The notes beneath the pieces were generated by a model that saw only the letters and a list, made by a program, of their open reading frames with translations, was not told where the DNA came from and ran no database searches. Positions 1 through 24,300 of a stretch of 64,000 nucleotides of DNA are shown here, in pieces. The stretch's first letter is position 1. The number at the start of each line of letters is the position of its first letter. The position numbers and the translations under genes were made by a program. This DNA comes from Patescibacteria group bacterium. Lineage in GTDB: Bacteria > Patescibacteriota > Microgenomatia > 0-14-0-10-38-17. The stretch covers positions 74,132-138,131 of the forward strand of contig JBMNNJ010000001.1 in NCBI GenBank assembly GCA_050953885.1. The letters run 5' to 3'.

Positions 1-1174
1 TCGCGGCCACCGGCGCACCTATGTGGGGGCTCTGCCGGGGAGAATAATTCAGGGGATGAAAGAAGCGGGGACCAAAAACCCGGTTTTTATGCTTGACGAA
101 ATTGATAAGGTGGGGGCGGATTTTCGCGGCGATCCGGCCAGCGCCTTGCTTGAAGCATTGGATCCGGAGCAAAATAAAGAGTTTTCCGATCATTATCTTG
201 AGGTCCCTTATGATCTTTCTGAGGTTTTTTTCATCGCTACCGGTAATGTTTTAGATAATATTTTGCCTCCTTTGCGCGACCGAATGGAGATTATCCATTT
301 CCCCGGTTATACCGATGAGGAAAAGTATTTTATTGCCAAACGCTATCTTTGGCCGAAGCAATTAGAAGCTAATAGTCTTGAAAAAGAGGGAATTACCATT
401 ACGCCGGCGGCTTTGTATAAAATTATTCGTTCTTATACACGCGAGGCGGGAGTCCGTCAGCTGGAAAGAGAGTTGTCGAGGATTGCCAGAAAAAAGGCTC
501 GTCAGGTGGCGGAAGGAAAAAAAGTCGAGAAAAAAATTACCCCTGCTCAGCTTCACTCCCTGCTGGGGCCGGTGGAGTTTTCCTCTTTGGCGGCAGAGAC
601 CAAAGAAGAGGTGGGACGAGCCACGGGATTAGCCTGGACGCAGGCAGGGGGAGAAATTTTATTTATCGAGGTGGCGTTAATGCCGGGGAGAGGACAAATT
701 CTTTTAACCGGCCATTTGGGCGAGGTGATGAAGGAGTCCTGCCAAGCGGCAATTTCCTATGTCCGTAGCCATTGGGAGAAATTGGGGTTAAAAAAAGATT
801 TTAATAAGAATTTGGATATTCATGTCCATGTTCCCGAGGGGGCAGTGCCTAAAGATGGTCCTTCGGCGGGGGTGGCCATTGCCACAGCGGTGGTCTCAGC
901 GCTCACCGGCAAGCCGGTGAGAAGCGAGGTGGGGATGACGGGAGAAATTACCCTGCGGGGGAAGGTTTTGGAAATTGGCGGGGTAAAAGAAAAAGTTTTA
1001 GCCGCTCACCGCGCCGGTTTGAAAAAAGTGGTTTTACCAAAGGATAACAAGAAAAATTTGGAGGATATTCCAGCAAAAATCAGGAAGGAGATGAAATTTG
1101 TTTTTGCCGAAAATTTAGATGAGGTTTTTAAAGAGGCTTTGGTGGAGAATAAAAAGAAAAAATTAAAGACTTAA
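1..1174 (+). CDS. lon: Lon protease, C-terminal part (AAA+ C-terminal region and S16 proteolytic domain); 5' end cut by window edge
   Basis: Frame continuous from position 2. Conserved [15 protein letters not shown] and [14 protein letters not shown] motifs, and the catalytic-Ser motif [14 protein letters not shown]. Confidence 0.9.
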
Positions 1175-1486
1175 TTTTTTCCGTAATTGCTTAATTTCTA
1201 AAAGTGTTTTAGTAAGAATATTTGCTTTGCGTAGAGGAACAGCGTTGGAAGGAAGAACGCCTTCAGGAAATTTGTTTCCTATGATTTCTACTTCATTATT
1301 AACGCTGTAGATAATCTTAGGATTGGCAAGGGGAAAATCTTGGTTAAAGGATAATTGCTTTTCTTCTTCCAGGCGCTCTTTACCTTGCTTTAAATTTTGG
1401 CTTTTGGGTGTCTGCAACATCTCTTTTCTTGCTCTCCCCCAGCTAAGCCGGGCTATATATCGTTCGTTTTCTACTATTCTGGCCAT
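1163..1486 (-). CDS. hypothetical protein (107 aa), starts 17 nt after the tRNA-Glu 3' end on the same strand
   Basis: Intact ORF; I recognise no family. Its position suggests co-transcription with the tRNA. Confidence 0.35.
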   Translation of the reverse strand: MARIVENERYIARLSWGRARKEMLQTPKSQNLKQGKERLEEEKQLSFNQDFPLANPKIIYSVNNEVEIIGNKFPEGVLPSNAVPLRKANILTKTLLEIKQLRKKLSL

Positions 1487-1502
1487 GTTATGTTTTAATT
1501 TG

Positions 1503-1574
1503 TAGCCCCATCGGGATTTGAACCCGAATTGCCAGGATGAGAACCTGGTGTCCTAACCGTTAGACGATAGGGCC
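1503..1574 (-). tRNA. tRNA-Glu (anticodon CUC), CCA not encoded
   Basis: Reverse complement folds as a cloverleaf: acceptor GGCCCTA/TGGGGCT, D-arm GTCTAACGGTTAGGAC, anticodon stem CCAGG/CCTGG with loop TTCTCAT, T-arm TCGGG-TTCAAAT-CCCGA. Confidence 0.8.
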
Positions 1575-1640
1575 GGAAAATTTTCTGCCGTCGGCAGAAA
1601 ATTTAATCCGCCAGCTGGTGGATTGCCTTTTGACTTTTCT

Positions 1641-1669
1641 ATTATATCTTCTTTCCTTTTTCTTGACAA
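1641..1669 (-). promoter_or_regulatory. near-consensus promoter for tRNA-Glu on the minus strand, TTGTCA-17-TATAAT; its -35 overlaps the greA -35 back to back
   Basis: Reverse complement of 1641-1669 reads ttgtca-17nt-tataat. It shares the palindromic ttgacaa core with the plus-strand promoter. Confidence 0.45.
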
Positions 1670-1691
1670 GGGAAGGTTAAAGTAATATAAT
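1663..1691 (+). promoter_or_regulatory. consensus sigma-70-like promoter for greA, TTGACA-17-TATAAT
   Basis: ttgaca at 1663-1668, 17-nt spacer, tataat at 1686-1691, about 88 nt upstream of the greA ATG. Confidence 0.55.
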
Positions 1692-1778
1692 CCCTTCATT
1701 CTTTAAATTTTCCAAGGCGGAAACGTTTTTTAATCTGCAGAAAAAGGGCTTCTTCTGGGTTATTTTTAGCTACGTTTT

Positions 1779-2243
1779 TTGAATATGGATAAAAAAATAT
1801 TAACTCCTGAAGGATTTCGTGATCTTCAGGAAAAATTAGACCAGTTAAGAAAAAAGCGACCGGCGATTTTGGACCGGCTGGAACATGCTCGAAATATGGG
1901 TGATTTGGCAGAGAATAGCGAATATACCCAAGCTAAGCAAGATTTGGAATTTTTGGACCACCAGATTGACGAGTTAGAAGAGAAAATTAGCCAAGCGCAA
2001 GTGGTTGGCGACGAGGATAAAAACGGTCAGGTAAAAATTGGTAGCCGGGTAGAGGTGGTTTTGGGCCAAAAAACGAGTGTTCTTTCGGTTGTTGGCGATG
2101 ATGAGGGCAATCCTTTGGCGGCAAAAATTTCTTATTCCTCGCCCTTAGGCCAAGCTCTTTTGGGGAAAAAAGCCGGCGAGGAAGCAGTGCTTAAAACCCC
2201 AACGGGGGAAGAATTAGTTTATAAGATTAAAAAAGTTAGTTAA
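1779..2243 (+). CDS. greA: transcription elongation factor GreA
   Basis: 154 aa with N-terminal coiled coil (LTPEGFRDLQEKLDQLR, MGDLAENSEY) and C-terminal FKBP-like domain. Confidence 0.9.
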   Translation: MNMDKKILTPEGFRDLQEKLDQLRKKRPAILDRLEHARNMGDLAENSEYTQAKQDLEFLDHQIDELEEKISQAQVVGDEDKNGQVKIGSRVEVVLGQKTSVLSVVGDDEGNPLAAKISYSSPLGQALLGKKAGEEAVLKTPTGEELVYKIKKVS

Positions 2244-2276
2244 AAGAGAATTTTTTGTGGTAAACTAAGGCTTAAG

Positions 2277-3737
2277 ATGAATGCGCGTTTGGAAGAAATT
2301 CGTCAAGAGAGAATTAAGAAACTTCAACAGTGGCGCCAATTTGGCGTTGATCCTTTTCCTCCCCGCACCCCCCCGAGAGAACCAATAGAAGAGGCAAGAA
2401 AAAAAGAAGGAGAAAAAGTGAGCGTTTGCGGGCGGATTAAGGCTTGGCGGGGTCATGGCGGCTCTTCTTTTGCCGATCTTTACGATCAGAGCGGCAAGAT
2501 TCAACTTTTTTTCAGCCGTCGTGATTTAGGAGAAGAAAATTATCAGCGTCTTGAGCTTTTGGATATTGGTGACTTTCTTTTTGCTCAGGGGGAAGTTTTT
2601 ACCACCCAAAAAGGGGAAGTAAGCATTAAAGTTTCTTCTTACCAGCTTTTAGCTAAGTCTTTACGTCCTTTGCCGGGAAAATGGCGAGGGTTGCGGGATA
2701 TTGAATTGCGTTGCCGCAAGCGCTATTTGGATCTTTTAGTTAATCCTTCTTCGCGGGATGTTTTTTTAAAACGAAGCCAAATAGTGAGTTTCATGCGCTC
2801 TTTTTTGGAAAAAAGAGGCTTTTTAGAGGTAGAAACCCCCACACTTCAGCCAATTTACGGCGGGGCTTCGGCGCGGCCTTTTGTTACCCATCATCACGCC
2901 TTAGATGTTGATCTTTATCTGAAGGTTTCCGACGAGCTTTATCTTAAGCGGTTGATTATTGGGGGGATTGAGAAGGTTTTTGAAATTGACCATAATTTCC
3001 GGAATGAAGGCATTGATAAGCATCATAATCCGGAGTTTACGATGATGGAATGCTACTGGGCTTATGCCGATTATCAGGATATGATGACGCTGACAGAAGA
3101 GCTTTTTTCACAATTGGCCAAGGAAGTTTTAGGCAAGACGATAATTTCCTATCAAGGCCATAAAATTAACTTAAAAGCGCCTTGGGAAAGAATAAACATG
3201 GCCGAAGCTATTAAGCACTACTTGGGTTGGGACGCTAAAAAGATAAGCGATCGGGAGTTAAAGAAAAAGTTGGCGCAAAGGAAAATTACCTTGCCGGGAA
3301 AATTTAACCGGGGTTTGGCAATTGCCGCTCTTTTTGAGGAAGTAGAACCTTATTTAATTCAGCCTACGATCATCTATGATTATCCTAAGGAAACAACGAT
3401 GCTTTGCAAGTTAAAGCCCGGGAATCCGGATTTAATTGAACGCTTTGAGCCTTATATTGCCGGCATGGAGGTGGGCAATGCTTATTCGGAATTAAATGAT
3501 CCCCTTCTTCAACGAGAGTTTTTTGCGGATCAAGTAAGAAGAAAAAAAGCTGGCGAAGAAGAAGCCACGCCCATGGATGAGGATTTTCTTGAGGCAATGG
3601 AGTATGGGATGCCCCCTACCGGGGGTTTAGGAATTGGTATTGACCGGATGGTGATGCTTTTAACGGGGCAGGAAAATATTCGCGATGTGATTTTATTCCC
3701 AACGCTTAAGCCGAAGAAAGAAGAGAAGAGTATTTAG
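2277..3737 (+). CDS. lysS: lysyl-tRNA synthetase (class II)
   Basis: N-terminal OB domain and class II core motifs FLEVETP, FRNEG, GGLGIGIDRMVMLLTG. Confidence 0.95.
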   Translation: MNARLEEIRQERIKKLQQWRQFGVDPFPPRTPPREPIEEARKKEGEKVSVCGRIKAWRGHGGSSFADLYDQSGKIQLFFSRRDLGEENYQRLELLDIGDFLFAQGEVFTTQKGEVSIKVSSYQLLAKSLRPLPGKWRGLRDIELRCRKRYLDLLVNPSSRDVFLKRSQIVSFMRSFLEKRGFLEVETPTLQPIYGGASARPFVTHHHALDVDLYLKVSDELYLKRLIIGGIEKVFEIDHNFRNEGIDKHHNPEFTMMECYWAYADYQDMMTLTEELFSQLAKEVLGKTIISYQGHKINLKAPWERINMAEAIKHYLGWDAKKISDRELKKKLAQRKITLPGKFNRGLAIAALFEEVEPYLIQPTIIYDYPKETTMLCKLKPGNPDLIERFEPYIAGMEVGNAYSELNDPLLQREFFADQVRRKKAGEEEATPMDEDFLEAMEYGMPPTGGLGIGIDRMVMLLTGQENIRDVILFPTLKPKKEEKSI

Positions 3738-3780
3738 TATTAAGTATCAGGTATGAAAATGTTAAATAGAAATTGGGAAT

Positions 3781-4030
3781 TCGCCCCGCTCTGGCGGGGC
3801 TGAAATTAAGAAATTGAAAATGGGGAAAAATTTTGTTTCATTATTGCGGGCTGACCATAACTGTCATTCTGACGAAAGTCAGAACGAATAACTAAATTCA
3901 AAAGTTAAAATTTAAAAGTCAAAAGTACAAGTTAAAATTAAAAAGTAGAGCAAAAAGAACTTTTAACTTTTGACTTGCAATTTTGATCCGCCAGCTGGCG
4001 GATTGACTTTTGAATTTTGAATTATTTTTT
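3781..4030. repeat. intergenic repeat cluster: GC hairpin gccccgc-tctg-gcggggc (possible lysS terminator), gtcattctgacgaaagtcagaa hairpin, AT-rich k-mer element, ccgccagctggcgg palindrome
   Basis: Every module recurs elsewhere in the window; see findings. Confidence 0.7.
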
Positions 4031-4094
4031 CGTCTTCTATTCGTGTCAATTCGTGTATCTTAGTAATTTGACAATATAACAATTTAGTTTATCT

Positions 4095-4643
4095 ATGATC
4101 ACTCGTGAAGAAGCCTTAAAACTTTTGGAAGAAAATTTATCCAATCAAAATTTGGTAAAGCATAGTTTGGCTTCAGAAGCAGTAATGCGCGCTTTGGCGC
4201 GTTATTTGGGCGAGAATGAAGAGGAGTGGGGTTTGGCCGGGCTTTTGCATGATTTAGACGCTCAAATTGTCTCGCCCCAAGAGCATGGTTTGAAAACGGT
4301 GGCCATTTTGGGAGAAAGGATCACTCCTGCCATGGCGCAGGCGATTAAGGCTCATAACCAACCTTTTAATAATATTAAACGAGAAAGCAAGTTTGATTAC
4401 GCTTTGGCAGCGGGGGAAACAATTACCGGTTTAATTGTCGCTTCAACGTTGGTTTTGCCGAGCAAAAAATTAGCCGATTTAAAAGCCGAGAGTGTTTTGA
4501 AAAGATTTGGGGAAAAGCATTTTGCCGCTGGGGCGCGGCGGGAAGATATTATTTTATGCGAAAAGCTGGGATTAAGCTTGGAAGAGTTTGTTTCCCTTGC
4601 CTTAAAAGCGATGCAGGAGGTAAGCGGGGAATTAGGGTTATAA
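4095..4643 (+). CDS. HD-domain metal-dependent phosphohydrolase (small, 182 aa)
   Basis: H...HD signature (VKHSLASEAV ... GLLHDLD). Confidence 0.6.
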   Translation: MITREEALKLLEENLSNQNLVKHSLASEAVMRALARYLGENEEEWGLAGLLHDLDAQIVSPQEHGLKTVAILGERITPAMAQAIKAHNQPFNNIKRESKFDYALAAGETITGLIVASTLVLPSKKLADLKAESVLKRFGEKHFAAGARREDIILCEKLGLSLEEFVSLALKAMQEVSGELGL

Positions 4644-4747
4644 TAAGATAAATTATTAAACTGTTAAATTGTTATATTTTTTAGAAAATTCAAAATTAAA
4701 ACAAAAAAAACTTTTGACTTTTGAATTTTGCATTTTGAATTATCTTT

Positions 4748-6004
4748 ATGCTTTCTATCGACTTTATTCGCCAAAACAAGGAGTTGGTTAAAAAGGAAGC
4801 GGTAGAAAAACAGCTTGATCCCAAGGTGGTGGATCAGCTTTTAGCCATTGACGAGGAAAGGCGGGAGCTAATTCAGAAAATAGAAGTCCTGCGTCAGCAA
4901 AGAAAAACTGCTTCTCAAAAGAGAGACATTGAGACGGGGAAAAAGATAAAAGAAGAGTTGGGAAAGCTTGAGTCGGAGCTTAAAAAGAAAGAAGAGGAAT
5001 ATAAAAACCTCATGCTTTTGGTTCCCAATATTTCCTCGCCGGATACACCCCTGGAAGATAAGGAAATTTATCGTTGGGGTAAGAAGCCAAAATTTAATTT
5101 TCCGCCGCTTTCTCATCTTGAGTTGGGGGAAAAGTTAGACCTTATTGACCTTGAAAAAGGAGTGCAAACCGCCGGCTTTAGGGGTTATTATCTTAAAAAT
5201 GAAGCGGCCCAACTTCATTTTGCCCTTCTTTTTTATGCTTGGCAGAAAATTATCAGCAAAGGCTTTACTCCGCTGTTAGTGCCAACAATTTTGCGGGAAT
5301 TTGCTCTCTTAGGAAGCGGCCATTTTCCTTTTGGCCGGGAGGATATCTATCAGATTGCCAATCCCGGTAAGCTTGAAAGCGGGAAAACCATAAGCGAACC
5401 ATTGTTTTTAGCCGGTACCGCCGAACCCTCTCTTTTGGCATATTTTGCCAACGAAACTTTAAAAGAAGAGGATTTGCCGGTTAAAGTTTGCGGCTGGACA
5501 CAGTGTTATCGCTCGGAGGTGGGCAGTTACGGCCGTGACACGCAAGGGATTTACCGGATTCATGAGTTTATGAAGGTGGAACAGGTAGTTTTATGCCCGG
5601 CCGATGAGAAAGTTTCTGACGAGTGGTTGGAGAAAATGCGTATTTATTCGGAAGAAATTTTGCGTGATTTAAAACTTCCTTATCGGGTTATTCAAGTAGG
5701 GAAAAAAGAAATGGGGGCAGGAAAGAGGAAAATGTATGACTTGGAAACCTGGATGCCCTCGCGGCAAGGTTATGGGGAAACCCATTCCGATTCAAATTTA
5801 ACCGACTGGCAGGCGCGGCGGTTAAATATTAAGTATAAGACCAAAAAAGGAGAAATAAAGTTTGTACATTGTCTTAATAACACCGTTTTGGCCTCGCCGC
5901 GAATTTTAATTGCCGTTTTGGAAAATTTTCAGCAAAAAGACGGCTCCATTTTAATCCCCAAAGTTTTACAAAAACTGGTCGGAAAGAAAAAAATCGCCCG
6001 CTGA
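4748..6004 (+). CDS. serS: seryl-tRNA synthetase
   Basis: N-terminal coiled-coil arm followed by a class II core (GFTPLLVPTILRE, YRSEVGSYGRDTQGIYRIHEF, GETHSDSNLTDWQARRL). Confidence 0.9.
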   Translation: MLSIDFIRQNKELVKKEAVEKQLDPKVVDQLLAIDEERRELIQKIEVLRQQRKTASQKRDIETGKKIKEELGKLESELKKKEEEYKNLMLLVPNISSPDTPLEDKEIYRWGKKPKFNFPPLSHLELGEKLDLIDLEKGVQTAGFRGYYLKNEAAQLHFALLFYAWQKIISKGFTPLLVPTILREFALLGSGHFPFGREDIYQIANPGKLESGKTISEPLFLAGTAEPSLLAYFANETLKEEDLPVKVCGWTQCYRSEVGSYGRDTQGIYRIHEFMKVEQVVLCPADEKVSDEWLEKMRIYSEEILRDLKLPYRVIQVGKKEMGAGKRKMYDLETWMPSRQGYGETHSDSNLTDWQARRLNIKYKTKKGEIKFVHCLNNTVLASPRILIAVLENFQQKDGSILIPKVLQKLVGKKKIAR

Positions 6005-6089
6005 GTCCCGGTGTTAATTAACTTTCAAGCTCAAAAAATCCTTCGAAAAAAGGACAGGGGTTTTTCTTGTTTTTTTGACGTGATAAGCA

Positions 6090-6133
6090 AATACTATAGA
6101 CACTAAATTGCTATATAGTAATTTAGTGAAAAA
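6090..6133. repeat. 45-bp conserved element containing a 26-28 bp near-perfect palindrome (cactaaattgctatatagtaatttagtg); second copy at 16316-16361
   Basis: Two copies about 10 kb apart, both followed by gaaaaa. Confidence 0.7.
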
Positions 6134-6204
6134 TTAAGAAAATTTTTTTTGGGGGGAGCAAATCTAATTTTTTAAAACCTGTCTTTTTAGTCTTGAAACC
6201 AGAG

Positions 6205-6285
6205 GTGTAAATAGCCCCGCCGTGGCGGGATCCGCCCCGAGCGGACCGCCAAAGGCGGATCCCGCTATGGCGGGACAACCCACCT
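6205..6285. repeat. GC-rich nested palindromes (gccccgccgtggcggg ... gggatccgcc/ggcggatccc ... cccgctatggcgggac) directly 3' of the minus-strand MiaB-like gene; possible terminator
   Basis: Related palindromes at 3783, 24054 and 30725. Confidence 0.6.
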
Positions 6286-8190
6286 CTAAGGTGTAACTGC
6301 TTTTTCCAGCCAATGGGCGGCTTTTTTTACAAGGGGTTCTTTTTCTTTTTCAGCCAAAGAAAGCATCTTAAAAGCAAGCTCTTCCCAGTTTTCAACTTTA
6401 TTTTTAAGCTTTACGGTGGTTACCAGAGCGGCTCTTTTTAGCCAAATGTTTTCGGAATTTAGCCAATCATAAAGAAGATTATTCTTTTTTGGGGAATTTT
6501 TTAAGACAGGAGCCAAAACTTCGCCGGCAAGAGTGTCAGTTACGGCCCAATTGTTAATATTTTTGGTAATTAATTTTTCTAACCAGGAAATATCTTTTAT
6601 TGCCAAATTTTTTTGGTATAAACCTAAAAGAAAAATCCCCGCCAGCTTGCTATCTAAATTTTTGGTAGAAATTAATTTTTCCGCGGTAGTAAAACAAACC
6701 GCGGTTGTTTTTAACTCTGGATATTCTTTCCAATATTTTTTAATGATTTTTCTGATTTCTTTTGTTCTCACTCCATAAGAAATAATTTTTTCTCCAATTA
6801 ACTTGTTGCGGCTTTGAGCGAATTTTTTATCTTGATTTTTCCGCAGTTCTTGATCAAGAAAGCGGGAAAAGTCTTTATCGGGTTTTTTCAAAAGTAATTT
6901 GCCGTAAAGTTTTTTATTGCCGGCCAGGCCGGTAATTTCTACGGGGATAATTTTGGGCGCTAATTTTTGAGAGGTGTCAATTTCTATTTCCCAAAAATTT
7001 TCCGTCAAGCCTTGCCATGCTTTCCCCCTTTTTCCTAAAATTAAGCAATTTAATTTTTTGCCGATGAGTTTTTTTCCTTCCTCTTGGCGAATTTCTTTGG
7101 TTAGAGCGCGAACTTTTCGGCTTCTTTCTTTTTTAATTTCCGGCGGGATTTCTTTCCAGAGACCCTTTTCAATCATTTTTTCGGCAGTAGTACCCGGTCG
7201 GGGAGAGAAACGAAAGGTGTGGGTAAAGGCAATTCTTGTCTCTTCAATATATTGTAGCGTTTGCCGAAAATCTTCTTCGGTTTCTCCCGGAAAGCCAACT
7301 AAAATGTCCGCCCGCAAATTAAATTCAGGGATTTCTTGTTTTATATATTGTAGTAGCTTTTTTGTTTTATTTAGATCGGTTTTTGGCCGATTCATTAATC
7401 GGTGAAGACGGGGCGAGCCGGTTTGGAGGGCAAGATGAAAATAAATAGAAAGGCGTTTTTCTTGTTGATGGTCTTTTAGATAAGTTTCTATAAGAGAGGG
7501 AGTAATTAAATTAGGGGTAAGTGAGCTTAGGGAAAGGCGAGGGATTTTCGTTTTTGTTAAGATTAAATTGATAAGATCGTTAAGGTTAAGATTGGGTTTT
7601 AAGTCTTGGCCAAAGGCAGAAAGATTAATACCGCATAAAACCACTTCCTGAACACCCCGACCTACCAGTTGGTTAATTTCTTTAATAATTTCTTTTGGCG
7701 GTTTGCTTTGAAAGTTGGGGCGCAAAAGAGGGACGATGCAGAAGGAACAATATTGTTGGCAACCGTCCTGAATTTTTACCCATTCTCGAGCCGGCGCTTC
7801 TTTGCCTTGAAAAGTTTTTTTCTTTTCCGGAAAATGTGGAAAGCAAGACGCGATTATTTGGGGAATTTTTTCTTTATCGGGATTACCAATAAAAAGATCG
7901 GCCGCCGGTAAGTTTATTCCTAATTTTTTTTGGACCTCAACGGCGCAACCGGTGGCCACTAAAAAACTTTGGGGGAATTCTTTCTTAAAATGGTTGATGG
8001 CCTGACGGGCTTCATGCTCGGCTTTTTTAGTAACGGCACAGGTGTTTAAAATGATTAAGTCGGGAGCGGTTTTATTTTTGGTGTCAAAAAGAGCAAAACC
8101 TTTATCAATTAACTCTTCTTGAATTTTTTTGCTTTCTGCTTGGTTAACCCGACAACCGAAGGTTTGGATGAGGAAAGAAGGCGGTTTCAT
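6286..8190 (-). CDS. MiaB/RimO-family radical-SAM methylthiotransferase (MTTase N-domain, CxxxCxxC, TRAM) with an extra C-terminal ~190-aa AlkD/AlkC-like HEAT-repeat domain
   Basis: Start chosen at MKPPSFLIQTFGCRVNQ. Radical-SAM motif CQQYCSFC, TRAM segment, then a tail that aligns with AlkD (NWAVTDTLAGEVL, ENIWLKRAAL, KKAAHWLEKA). Confidence 0.8.
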   Translation of the reverse strand: MKPPSFLIQTFGCRVNQAESKKIQEELIDKGFALFDTKNKTAPDLIILNTCAVTKKAEHEARQAINHFKKEFPQSFLVATGCAVEVQKKLGINLPAADLFIGNPDKEKIPQIIASCFPHFPEKKKTFQGKEAPAREWVKIQDGCQQYCSFCIVPLLRPNFQSKPPKEIIKEINQLVGRGVQEVVLCGINLSAFGQDLKPNLNLNDLINLILTKTKIPRLSLSSLTPNLITPSLIETYLKDHQQEKRLSIYFHLALQTGSPRLHRLMNRPKTDLNKTKKLLQYIKQEIPEFNLRADILVGFPGETEEDFRQTLQYIEETRIAFTHTFRFSPRPGTTAEKMIEKGLWKEIPPEIKKERSRKVRALTKEIRQEEGKKLIGKKLNCLILGKRGKAWQGLTENFWEIEIDTSQKLAPKIIPVEITGLAGNKKLYGKLLLKKPDKDFSRFLDQELRKNQDKKFAQSRNKLIGEKIISYGVRTKEIRKIIKKYWKEYPELKTTAVCFTTAEKLISTKNLDSKLAGIFLLGLYQKNLAIKDISWLEKLITKNINNWAVTDTLAGEVLAPVLKNSPKKNNLLYDWLNSENIWLKRAALVTTVKLKNKVENWEELAFKMLSLAEKEKEPLVKKAAHWLEKAVTP

Positions 8191-8256: not shown

Positions 8257-8346
8257 GCACACGGGATTAAACAGGATGTTTACGGGATGAAACAGGATAA
8301 AAAATCCCGTTCAATCCTGTCCTAAATCCTGTTGTATCCCGTGTGC
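8257..8346. repeat. about 90-bp imperfect palindrome (gcacacgggat ... acaggat x2 | atcctgt x2 ... atcccgtgtgc) in the divergent MiaB-like/secA intergenic region
   Basis: Arm-to-arm reverse-complement match read directly from the sequence. Confidence 0.7.
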
Positions 8347-24049: not shown

Positions 24050-24300
24050 TTTTGTCCCGCCATAGCGGGACCCCGTTGCGGCGGGGCATTTTGATCCGCC
24101 AGCTGGCCTTGTACCAGCACGGTACAGAGCTGACGGACAGGGTTCATTCCTGTAGCTGTCATTCCTGAACTAAATTCAGGACAGGCTCTGACGAAAGTCA
24201 GGATCTAAATGATTCTGAATCAAGTTCAGAATGACGCTAATCGTGGCCGTCATTCTGATGAATCCGCCAGCTTGCGGATCAAATCTGAAAGCTACCACGC
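24050..24300. repeat. composite cluster of GC palindromes and hairpin modules in the divergent rtcB/24455 intergenic region
   Basis: gtcccgccatagcgggac, ccgccagctgg (interrupted), tctgacgaaagtcagga, gattctgaatcaagttcagaatgacg, gatccgcaagctggcggattc. Confidence 0.75.

What the first reader, a model, noticed from the sequence alone, without database searches (positions are those of the whole stretch)
6286..6885. MiaB-like radical-SAM methylthiotransferase fused to an AlkD/AlkC-like HEAT-repeat nucleic-acid-binding domain
After a complete MTTase (N-terminal MTTase domain, CQQYCSFC radical-SAM core, TRAM barrel) the protein continues for about 190 aa. This tail aligns block by block with Bacillus AlkD (pfam DNA_alkylation): KIISYGVRTKEIRKIIKKYWKEY, NWAVTDTLAGEVLAP matching AlkD NWDLVDTLAPQVLG with the second catalytic Asp kept, ENIWLKRAAL and KKAAHWLEKA. 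AlkD-type HEAT-like repeats bind nucleic acid without base flipping and recognise bulky or charged lesions. Fused to a tRNA or rRNA thiomethylase, the domain could act as an extra substrate-binding or damage-sensing module. I do not know this architecture from characterised proteins.
Basis: partly seen in the sequence, partly recalled or inferred. Interest (0 to 1): 0.55.

Follow-up and report, generated by a model that had tools for sequence, protein, structure and literature searches.

The report
Recent MtaB–AlkD-like gene fusion
A tRNA-modifying enzyme gene and the small DNA-repair-like gene next to it were joined into one reading frame by a recent 27-base deletion in one narrow group of uncultured Patescibacteria, so the odd architecture is real but is probably an evolutionary accident and not a new functional module.

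Summary
Window 6286..8190 (-) is one uninterrupted 634-aa ORF. It has an MtaB-like radical-SAM methylthiotransferase (UPF0004, CxxxCxxC core, TRAM-like barrel) followed by about 200 aa that match Pfam PF08713 (E=4e-31). A confident AlphaFold model of the tail is closest to Bacillus cereus AlkD (TM 0.76). AlkD's catalytic Trp109/Asp113/Trp187 equivalents are kept. The functional reading is poorly supported. In the closest relatives (86% identity) the two parts are separate adjacent genes. The window and its fused siblings carry an in-frame 27-bp deletion that removed the stop codon, the spacer and part of the start codon. A fused and an unfused allele coexist at 99-99.8% identity. Sister lineages lack the alkD-like gene or carry it frameshifted. 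The tail belongs to a short (~200 aa) AlkD subfamily. At 39-61% identity its members never sit next to a methylthiotransferase. Most lie in, or are remnants of, a five-gene cluster (CoA ligase, HemN-like radical SAM, DinB, methyltransferase, AlkD). Both halves remain under purifying selection (dN/dS ~0.2). The best reading is a recent, near-neutral fusion of two independently acting proteins.

The parts
6286..8190 (-). Fused gene: 634 codons plus a TAG stop (6286-6288). The ORF can be extended to a GTG at 8262, but homologues start at MKPPSF.
   Evidence: The identical protein is deposited as MGI6775758.1, annotated only as a MiaB/RimO family methylthiotransferase.
7885..8175 (-). N-terminal MTTase (UPF0004) domain. 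The three auxiliary-cluster Cys lie in FGCRVN (8143-8160), NTCAVT (8029-8046) and TGCAVE (7936-7953).
   Evidence: Pfam PF00919, E=1.5e-20; motif coordinates.
7246..7776 (-). Radical-SAM core; the CQQYCSFC motif is at 7738-7761.
   Evidence: Pfam PF04055, E=1.1e-18.
6895..7056 (-). TRAM-like five-strand beta barrel (aa 379-432).
   Evidence: AlphaFold full-length model, pLDDT above 90 in this stretch. The MtaB model TIGR01579 aligns through it. Pfam TRAM is not detected.
6877..6903 (-). Fusion junction GKLL|LKKPD. The scar of the 27-bp in-frame deletion is at about 6889-6893. The former ATG of the alkD-like gene now reads TTG.
   Evidence: DNA alignment of the window and L005 (fused) against L004 (split); further junction variants.
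6307..6855 (-). Short-form AlkD-like HEAT-like-repeat domain (PF08713 match, aa 446-628).
   Evidence: Pfam E=3.9e-31; PDB AlkD E=6.5e-11; AlphaFold pLDDT 88.8; Foldseek best hit AlkD 5uuf_A, TM 0.76, rmsd 2.8 A.
6535..6555 (-). NNWAVTD, carrying the equivalents of AlkD Trp109 and Asp113. AlkD Asp110 is Ala here.
   Evidence: Alignment to AlkD; invariant across the short subfamily; coordinates.
6424..6450 (-). NIWLKRAAL, which aligns with AlkD NIWLQRAAI and includes the invariant Arg.
6301..6321 (-). AAHWLEK, carrying the equivalent of AlkD Trp187. The protein ends 5 residues later, so about 45 C-terminal residues of AlkD are missing.
   Evidence: All short-subfamily members end at the same point.
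6198..6292 (.). Long GC-rich nested hairpin that encloses the stop codon and lies between the convergent fused gene and serS. Its outer stem is shared with alkD-less relatives, so it looks like the old mtaB/serS terminator. The inner GC-rich core is a dispersed repeat.
   Evidence: RNA fold of -66 kcal/mol; alignment with L001/L007; second copy of the core at 24050-24095.

Best explanation
This is a young gene fusion restricted to one lineage. Shown: in one clade of Shapirobacteria-like Patescibacteria, a small alkD-like gene lies directly downstream of mtaB, at the very 3' end of that gene. In a subset of that clade, a 27-bp in-frame deletion removed the mtaB stop codon, the 15-nt spacer and the first base(s) of the alkD start codon. 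This left one 634-aa ORF with a linker of about 10 residues. Inferred: the two halves keep working as they did when separate. The N-terminal 433 aa would act as an MtaB-type radical-SAM methylthiotransferase that makes ms2t6A37 in tRNA. The C-terminal 200 aa would act as a short-form AlkD-family HEAT-like-repeat protein. It would bind duplex DNA on its basic concave face and, using the retained Trp-Asp-Trp triad, excise cationic or bulky alkylpurine adducts without base flipping. This is most likely a stand-alone resistance or repair function that arrived by horizontal transfer from a five-gene cluster (CoA ligase, HemN-like radical SAM, DinB, methyltransferase, AlkD). On this reading the fusion itself brings little or no new function and is selectively near-neutral.
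For: The ORF is continuous and both domain sets are significant. The tail model is confident (pLDDT 88.8, pTM 0.86). Its best structural match is B. cereus AlkD (TM 0.76), ahead of AlkD2 (0.58) and AlkF (0.66). The equivalents of Trp109, Asp113 and Trp187, plus the Arg of NIWLKR, are invariant in 25 short-subfamily sequences whatever their context. PMC8626424 names those three residues as AlkD's catalytic residues. Of 120 listed homologues of the whole protein, only one cluster is fused. The next relatives (77-88% identity) are 436-438-aa enzymes without the tail. L004 has mtaB (436 aa) followed, after a 15-nt spacer, by a 201-aa PF08713 gene. The window and L005 differ from L004 at the junction by exactly 27 bp. 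L001-L003 and L007 have no alkD gene. L006, L027, L028 and L030 share a +1 A frameshift in alkD. L016 is unfused although its enzyme is 99.8% identical to the fused P0001, and the free-standing P0271 is 99% identical to the P0001 tail. Short-subfamily members at 39-61% identity lie next to a DVU_1556-like methyltransferase or within the five-gene cluster, or beside recombinases and restriction-modification genes. Among the surveyed loci, a co-oriented neighbouring methylthiotransferase occurs only in this clade; more distant PF08713 loci have none adjacent apart from one weak opposite-strand hit in L034. No methylthiotransferase fusion appears among the 150 nearest representatives in 1.84 billion proteins. 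dN/dS between the two fused alleles is 0.22 for the tail and 0.20 for the enzyme. The full-length model has a disordered linker and no confident packing.
Against: Four distinct fused alleles (P0302, P0307, P0001, P0305; 90-94% identity) have kept the frame and all key residues under purifying selection. The fusion is therefore tolerated and could be mildly advantageous. The tail lacks AlkD's last ~45 residues, which include the DNA contact His220. AlkD's B-helix residues Tyr27 and Lys29 are Leu and Gly here, and the K29A mutation alone costs AlkD at least 10,000-fold in binding to abasic DNA. Glycosylase activity is therefore not assured. No biochemical data exist for any short-form member. 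The transfer from the five-gene cluster rests on a short similarity of the 15-nt spacer to the end of the methyltransferase gene.
Confidence: 0.72

Rival explanations
1. Functional module. The HEAT-like-repeat tail acts as a second nucleic-acid-binding surface of the methylthiotransferase. It would help recruit tRNA or rRNA, sense alkylated or cationic bases in RNA, or couple tRNA modification to damage sensing.
For: The two parts are covalently joined by a short linker. The tail is basic (pI 9.75). The fused alleles are under purifying selection in both halves. AlkD-family members without glycosylase activity but with unusual nucleic-acid binding exist, namely AlkD2 and AlkF/AlkG.
Against: The fusion is confined to one cluster at 90% identity or more, and a fused and an unfused allele are nearly identical. 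The alkD-like gene is missing or frameshifted in sister lineages that keep mtaB. The short AlkD subfamily is otherwise found in contexts unrelated to tRNA. The enzyme already has its own TRAM-like RNA-binding barrel. The DNA-glycosylase catalytic triad is strictly conserved in the tail. No confident interdomain interface is predicted.
Confidence: 0.08
2. Passenger on the way to loss. The alkD-like part is a dispensable accessory gene that is no longer needed. The fusion would be one of several junction and coding lesions seen in this clade, and the tail has no function in the fused protein.
For: The gene is absent in L001 and L007, and frameshifted in four independent assemblies. The junction region exists in at least three indel states. 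The ATG of the alkD-like gene was lost in the fusion.
Against: Tail dN/dS between fused alleles is 0.22, no higher than the enzyme's 0.20, and no higher than between split alleles (0.39). All invariant family residues are kept in all four fused alleles. The tail folds confidently.
Confidence: 0.15
3. Artefact. The fusion comes from an assembly or sequencing error, or it is really two ORFs.
For: A contig from another assembly (L008) is 100% identical to the window but joins the HD-domain gene to the AlkD tail through an inversion-like breakpoint with 8 bp of microhomology. Chimeric joins therefore do occur at this locus.
Against: The same 27-bp deletion and the same continuous frame occur in L005 from a different metagenome, at 92% protein identity. 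The cluster also holds further fused members from other NCBI and JGI records, on contigs up to 597,657 nt. The window's gene order matches that of its relatives.
Confidence: 0.02

Closest known systems
Bacillus cereus AlkD (HEAT-like-repeat alkylpurine DNA glycosylase; PDB 3BVS, 5CL3, 5UUF)
   Same: Both match Pfam family PF08713. The alpha-solenoid fold is the same (TM 0.76, rmsd 2.8 A over 189 columns). The catalytic Trp109/Asp113/Trp187 equivalents and the NIWLxRAA Arg are conserved. The N-terminal region corresponding to helices A-C has the same length and is not deleted as it is in AlkD2.
   Different: Sequence identity is only 23%. The tail ends 5 residues after the Trp187 equivalent, so the last ~45 residues are missing (profile positions 179-213, including the His220 contact). 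Tyr27 is Leu, Lys29 is Gly and Asp110 is Ala. It is fused to a radical-SAM enzyme. Its activity is untested.
YtkR2 / C10R5 (AlkD-like self-resistance glycosylases in the yatakemycin and CC-1065 gene clusters)
   Same: These are AlkD homologues that sit in small-molecule gene clusters together with a HemN-like radical-SAM enzyme and a methyltransferase (the C10P/C10Q pair, PMC6050322). The short AlkD subfamily is likewise the last gene of a conserved cluster of CoA ligase, HemN-like radical SAM, DinB and methyltransferase.
   Different: No direct sequence comparison with YtkR2 or C10R5 was made here. The five-gene cluster is far smaller than those pathways and its product is unknown. In the window the gene is an orphan, detached from the cluster.
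Streptococcus mutans AlkD2 and B. cereus AlkF/AlkG (non-enzymatic HEAT-like-repeat proteins)
   Same: They have the same superfamily fold (TM 0.58 to 4x8q, 0.66 to 3zbo). They show that family members can lack glycosylase activity.
   Different: AlkD2 lacks helix B and has Asn at the position of AlkD residue 187. The tail keeps the helix-B region in length and keeps the Trp. AlkF/AlkG use a beta-hairpin that is not seen in the tail model.
MtaB (YqeV) tRNA t6A37 methylthiotransferase
   Same: It has the same three-part layout of UPF0004 domain, radical-SAM core and TRAM-like barrel. The three N-terminal Cys and the CxxxCxxC motif are present. Sources name close relatives MtaB. The B. subtilis YqeV family is described in PMC2952846.
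   Different: It scores 330 bits against an equivalog cut-off of 357. Pfam does not detect TRAM. It carries a 200-aa C-terminal extension that is not seen in any other listed relative.

Membership tests
MiaB/RimO-family radical-SAM methylthiotransferase (MtaB subgroup) | N-terminal UPF0004 domain with three conserved Cys for the auxiliary Fe-S cluster | tested here: met
   PF00919, E=1.5e-20. Cys are present in FGCRVN, NTCAVT and TGCAVE.
MiaB/RimO-family radical-SAM methylthiotransferase (MtaB subgroup) | Radical-SAM core with CxxxCxxC | tested here: met
   PF04055, E=1.1e-18. CQQYCSFC is at aa 144-151.
MiaB/RimO-family radical-SAM methylthiotransferase (MtaB subgroup) | C-terminal TRAM RNA-binding barrel | tested here: inconclusive
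   Pfam PF01938 is not detected even at E<=1. The TIGR01579 model aligns over its full length, and AlphaFold gives a confident five-strand barrel at aa 379-432.
MiaB/RimO-family radical-SAM methylthiotransferase (MtaB subgroup) | Score above the curated family or equivalog cut-off | tested here: inconclusive
   Subfamily TIGR00089 passes (336 against 251). The MtaB equivalog TIGR01579 is the best equivalog but falls just short (330 against 357).
MiaB/RimO-family radical-SAM methylthiotransferase (MtaB subgroup) | Forms ms2t6A37 in tRNA | not testable with these tools
   This needs LC-MS of tRNA nucleosides or a complementation test.
AlkD family (PF08713 HEAT-like-repeat DNA glycosylases) | Significant match to the PF08713 profile | tested here: met
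   108.8 bits against a cut-off of 21, E=3.9e-31.
AlkD family (PF08713 HEAT-like-repeat DNA glycosylases) | HEAT-like-repeat alpha-solenoid fold | tested here: met
   Twelve-helix model with pLDDT 88.8. The top eight PDB hits are all AlkD, with TM 0.75-0.77.
AlkD family (PF08713 HEAT-like-repeat DNA glycosylases) | Catalytic triad Trp109, Asp113, Trp187 (PMC8626424) | tested here: met
   All three align to W, D and W in the tail. They are invariant in the short subfamily and kept in all fused alleles.
AlkD family (PF08713 HEAT-like-repeat DNA glycosylases) | DNA-binding B-helix with Tyr27 and Lys29 (PMC4433238) | tested here: not met
   The region is present without a deletion and is helical in the model. 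However, Tyr27 aligns with Leu and Lys29 with Gly. The subfamily instead conserves R-N-[KR]-L-I.
AlkD family (PF08713 HEAT-like-repeat DNA glycosylases) | Complete set of repeats, including the C-terminal pair that carries the His220 DNA contact | tested here: not met
   The match stops at profile position 178 of 213 and at AlkD residue 193 of 237. The whole short subfamily ends there.
AlkD family (PF08713 HEAT-like-repeat DNA glycosylases) | Excision of cationic alkylpurines from DNA without base flipping | not testable with these tools
   This needs glycosylase and EMSA assays.

The most novel reading that the evidence does not exclude
The fusion is adaptive. Tethered to MtaB, the HEAT-like-repeat domain would act on RNA instead of DNA. 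It would recognise positively charged or alkylated bases in tRNA (natural ones such as m7G or m1A, or damage). It would then either steer the methylthiotransferase to, or away from, particular tRNAs, or excise damaged bases from RNA. That would be the first RNA-directed member of the AlkD superfamily.
Probability: 0.06. Interest if true: 0.65.

Novelty: new variant of a known kind. Interest (0 to 1): 0.3.

Why it matters
Domain fusions are often read as evidence of a functional link ('Rosetta stone' logic). This case shows how such an inference can mislead. A 27-bp deletion between neighbouring genes created a striking architecture that is polymorphic among near-identical strains and has no wider conservation. 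The lasting value lies in the tail's family. It is an uncharacterised short form of AlkD that keeps the catalytic triad but lacks the last repeat. It appears to move between Patescibacteria genomes, and most copies at 39-61% identity lie in, or are remnants of, a five-gene cluster built around a HemN-like radical-SAM enzyme and a methyltransferase. If that cluster makes a DNA-alkylating compound, the short AlkD would be its resistance gene. Orphan copies such as the one fused here would then be acquired immunity in organisms with very small genomes.

Tried and rejected
- NCBIfam has no model that matches the tail. PADLOC has no defence-system model for the tail or for the cluster proteins, apart from a weak methyltransferase hit.
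- A scan of IMG/VR viral contigs for the short AlkD subfamily found nothing.
- The scan of GTDB species genomes found only three loci.
- Larger PF08713 proteins among the nearest representatives (P0186, P0211, P0188, P0264, P0250) carry no second recognisable domain. P0134 and P0241 are low-complexity or repeat false leads.
- The first full-length alignment (A4) misplaced the distant short AlkD sequences (13-19% apparent identity), so I replaced it with A5. With A5 the tail is modelled poorly in the full-length run because the alignment is shallow there, so that run says little about domain packing beyond 'no confident interface'.
- I considered that the ORF might continue past the stop in another frame to supply AlkD's missing C-terminus. 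I rejected this because the region after the stop is a GC-rich hairpin shared with the terminator of alkD-less relatives, and every short-subfamily member ends at the same residue.
- I first read P0306 as a deletion of the tail. The DNA shows it is an unfused allele with a hairpin copy in the junction.
- Literature searches for PF08713 and for methylthiotransferase together with AlkD returned nothing.
Full report
**What is in the sequence**

On the minus strand, one ORF runs from 8262 (GTG) to the TAG at 6286-6288 without interruption. Homologues, and the identical deposited protein, begin at the ATG at 8190 (MKPPSF...), which gives 634 aa. That deposited protein is MGI6775758.1, 'MiaB/RimO family radical SAM methylthiotransferase [Patescibacteria group bacterium]', on a contig of 597,657 nt.

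Pfam finds three domains in this one protein:
- UPF0004, E=1.5e-20.
- Radical_SAM, E=1.1e-18.
- PF08713 DNA_alkylation, E=3.9e-31, 108.8 bits against a cut-off of 21, profile positions 2-178 of 213.

NCBIfam places the first ~430 aa in the MiaB/RimO subfamily (336 bits, cut-off 251). The best equivalog is MtaB, at 330 bits, just under its cut-off of 357. The three auxiliary-cluster Cys and the CQQYCSFC motif are present. Pfam does not see a TRAM domain. However, the MtaB model aligns over its full length, and the AlphaFold model has a confident five-strand barrel at aa 379-432.

The neighbours are housekeeping genes: lon, greA, lysS, an HD-domain gene and serS on one side, secA and a release factor on the other. 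Close relatives have the same gene order.

**The tail is an AlkD-type domain**

The last 204 aa match B. cereus AlkD chains at E=6.5e-11 over AlkD residues 7-193. An AlphaFold model built on 25 subfamily sequences is confident (pLDDT 88.8, pTM 0.86, twelve helices). Foldseek against the PDB returns AlkD as the top eight hits (TM 0.75-0.77, rmsd 2.8-2.9 A). Next come an Enterococcus 'DNA alkylation repair' protein, AlkD2 (TM 0.58) and AlkF (TM 0.66). Generic HEAT and armadillo proteins follow far behind.

PMC8626424 names AlkD's three catalytic residues as Trp109, Asp113 and Trp187. They align with W and D of NNWAVTD and with W of AAHWLEK. These residues, and the Arg of NIWLKR, are invariant in the subfamily.

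There are three differences from AlkD:
- The protein ends five residues after the Trp187 equivalent, so about 45 C-terminal residues are missing, including the His220 DNA contact.
- The B-helix residues Tyr27 and Lys29 are Leu and Gly. K29A alone costs AlkD at least 10,000-fold in binding to abasic DNA (PMC4433238).
- Asp110 is Ala.

The truncation is not a local accident. In a search of 1.84 billion representatives, the nearest relatives are 190-217 aa long and end at the same point, while more distant hits are the usual 230-260 aa.

**How the fusion arose**

Among the 120 listed homologues of the whole protein, only one cluster (P0001, 92% identity) has both parts. The next relatives (P0002-P0006, 77-88% identity) are 436-438-aa enzymes without the tail. 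Their loci give the history:
- L001-L003 (Candidatus Shapirobacteria) and L007 have mtaB followed directly by convergent serS, with no alkD-like gene.
- L004 has mtaB (436 aa), a 15-nt spacer, and a separate 201-aa PF08713 gene.
- The window and L005 differ from L004 at the junction by exactly 27 bp. The missing bases are the last three mtaB codons, its TAA, the spacer and the first base(s) of the ATG. The result is ...GKLL-LKKPDKDF... in frame, and the former start codon now reads TTG.

The sequence just after the alkD-like stop is homologous to the 3' end and terminator of mtaB in alkD-less relatives. The mtaB end looks duplicated on both sides of the inserted gene (FAP* upstream, VTP* downstream, against CTP* in L007). 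The gene therefore seems to have been inserted at the very end of mtaB. This last step is an inference from short similarities.

**The fusion is young and not fixed**

The fused cluster holds seven members from NCBI, JGI and ENA records, and four of them are distinct full-length fused alleles (90-94% identity). One member, P0306 (locus L016), has an enzyme 99.8% identical to the fused P0001, but its junction is not fused. That junction carries a copy of a GC-rich hairpin element, then the spacer and an ATG. A free-standing 203-aa protein, P0271, is 99% identical to the P0001 tail.

In the split lineage, four independent assemblies (L006, L027, L028, L030) share a +1 A frameshift in an A-run that truncates the alkD-like product to 112 aa.

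Within this narrow clade the alkD-like gene is therefore absent, frameshifted, intact and separate, or fused. The junction exists in at least three indel states.

**Selection**

Between the two fused alleles for which I have DNA (window and L005), dN/dS is 0.22 for the tail and 0.20 for the enzyme. Between split alleles the tail gives 0.39, on few substitutions. The tail is therefore not decaying in the fused form.

Between the window and L004, synonymous divergence of the tail (0.185) is less than half that of the adjacent enzyme (0.469). This fits a later arrival, or recombinational spread, of the alkD-like gene.

**Where the short AlkD subfamily lives elsewhere**

Members at 39-61% identity are never next to a methylthiotransferase. 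Most sit directly after, and overlap by 17 nt, a class-I SAM methyltransferase (DVU_1556-like). In L011, L012, L017 (a Saccharibacteria MAG), L022, L024, L025 and L082 they sit within a conserved five-gene cluster:
- a DVU_1553-like CoA ligase,
- a HemN-like radical-SAM enzyme,
- a DinB-like protein,
- the methyltransferase,
- the short AlkD.

L033 shows the same order but is cut by a contig end.

Other loci keep only fragments next to an intact AlkD gene. L013-L015 have the C-terminal part of the methyltransferase, and L009 has an N-terminal piece of the CoA ligase. These lie beside serine recombinases, an rve integrase or restriction-modification genes.

In the metagenome survey, adjacency to a methylthiotransferase occurs only in loci 82-86% identical to the window's tail, that is, in the same clade. 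The 66 more distant PF08713 loci show none, apart from one weak opposite-strand hit 1.5 kb away (L034).

The 15-nt spacer of L004 resembles the last bases of the methyltransferase gene upstream of AlkD in L011. This suggests the gene came from such a cluster.

The combination of a HemN-like radical-SAM enzyme, a methyltransferase and an AlkD homologue recalls the CC-1065 and yatakemycin clusters. There, C10P/C10Q build the cyclopropane warhead (PMC6050322) and an AlkD-like glycosylase gives self-resistance (PMC8626424). This is an analogy, not a tested homology.

**Interpretation**

The comparative picture points to two proteins with separate functions that became one polypeptide through a small deletion. 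The enzyme has its own TRAM-like RNA-binding barrel. The tail conserves a DNA-glycosylase catalytic triad whether it is fused, free or inside the five-gene cluster. The full-length model shows a disordered linker (aa 436-479, pLDDT below 50) and no confident packing, although the tail is poorly modelled in that run because the alignment is shallow there.

I therefore rate 'recent, near-neutral fusion; MtaB acts on tRNA and the short AlkD acts on DNA damage' at about 0.72.

Whether the short form is an active glycosylase is uncertain. The triad is kept, but the Tyr27 and Lys29 equivalents and the last repeat are missing. I would put that at roughly even odds.

**Novelty and score**

I found no description of a methylthiotransferase-PF08713 architecture in the searchable literature, and no such fusion among the 150 nearest representatives. 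The window's own protein is deposited without mention of the tail.

The architecture is new but evolutionarily shallow. Both parts belong to known kinds, so I class it as a new variant of a known kind, with interest about 0.3. The short AlkD subfamily and its five-gene cluster are the more promising lead.

Noticed in passing
L011:985-5603, L012, L017:42-4579, L022, L024, L025, L082 (L033 partial): A five-gene cluster is conserved across different Patescibacteria contigs, including a Saccharibacteria MAG. It comprises a DVU_1553-like CoA ligase, a HemN-like radical-SAM enzyme, a DinB-like protein, a DVU_1556-like SAM methyltransferase and the short AlkD, whose start overlaps the methyltransferase stop by 17 nt. 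It recalls the C10P/C10Q plus AlkD-like resistance arrangement of genotoxin clusters. Its product is unknown.
   Followed up: partly
L013-L015 (174-aa ORF + AlkD), L009/L010 (77-aa ORF + AlkD), L020, L021, L023, L032: These are degenerate versions of that cluster. Only a C-terminal fragment of the methyltransferase, or an N-terminal fragment of the CoA ligase, survives next to an intact short AlkD gene. They often lie beside a serine recombinase, an rve integrase or restriction-modification genes. The AlkD gene seems to outlive the rest of the cluster.
   Followed up: partly
L008 (JGI 3300065808) versus window 1-4266 and 6820-4468: This contig is 100% identical to the window up to 4266, then continues with the reverse complement of 6820..4468 through 8 bp of microhomology. 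The join creates a chimeric ORF (P0274) made of HD-domain residues 1-57 fused to the AlkD tail from SRNKL onward. It is either a misassembly or a minority inversion in the same population. The window's own gene order matches that of its relatives.
   Followed up: partly
window 6198-6292 and 24050-24095; L016:1385-1425: A GC-rich hairpin element of about 40 nt (GTCCCGCCAYAGCGGGAYCCCG..CGGCGGGGC) occurs in expanded form inside the terminator after the fused gene, again at about 24.05 kb, and in L016 at the mtaB/alkD junction. It behaves like a small dispersed REP-like repeat. Fifteen CCGCC-N(2-6)-GGCGG hairpins occur in the window.
   Followed up: partly
L006:3215-3236, and the equivalent sites in L027, L028 and L030: Four independent assemblies of the split lineage share the same +1 A insertion (A5 to A6) in the alkD-like gene, which truncates it to 112 aa. 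The downstream frame is otherwise intact. This is a recent pseudogene, or possibly slippage-prone phase variation.
   Followed up: partly
window 6289-6879 versus 6891-8190, compared with L004: Synonymous divergence from L004 is 0.185 in the tail but 0.469 in the adjacent enzyme. The alkD-like gene appears younger than, or was recombined more recently than, its host gene.
   Followed up: no
P0304 (JGI, contig of 46,412 nt), corresponding to window ~8062-8190: This member of the fused cluster is otherwise identical to the window protein but lacks 43 residues at the N-terminus, including the ATG start and the first auxiliary-cluster Cys (FGCRVN). It may be an inactivated mtaB allele in a sibling strain.
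   Followed up: no
P0284 versus P0286: These two short AlkD proteins have identical C-terminal halves (from SPEKIEVLY to the end) but clearly different N-terminal halves. This suggests mosaic recombination within the subfamily.
   Followed up: no
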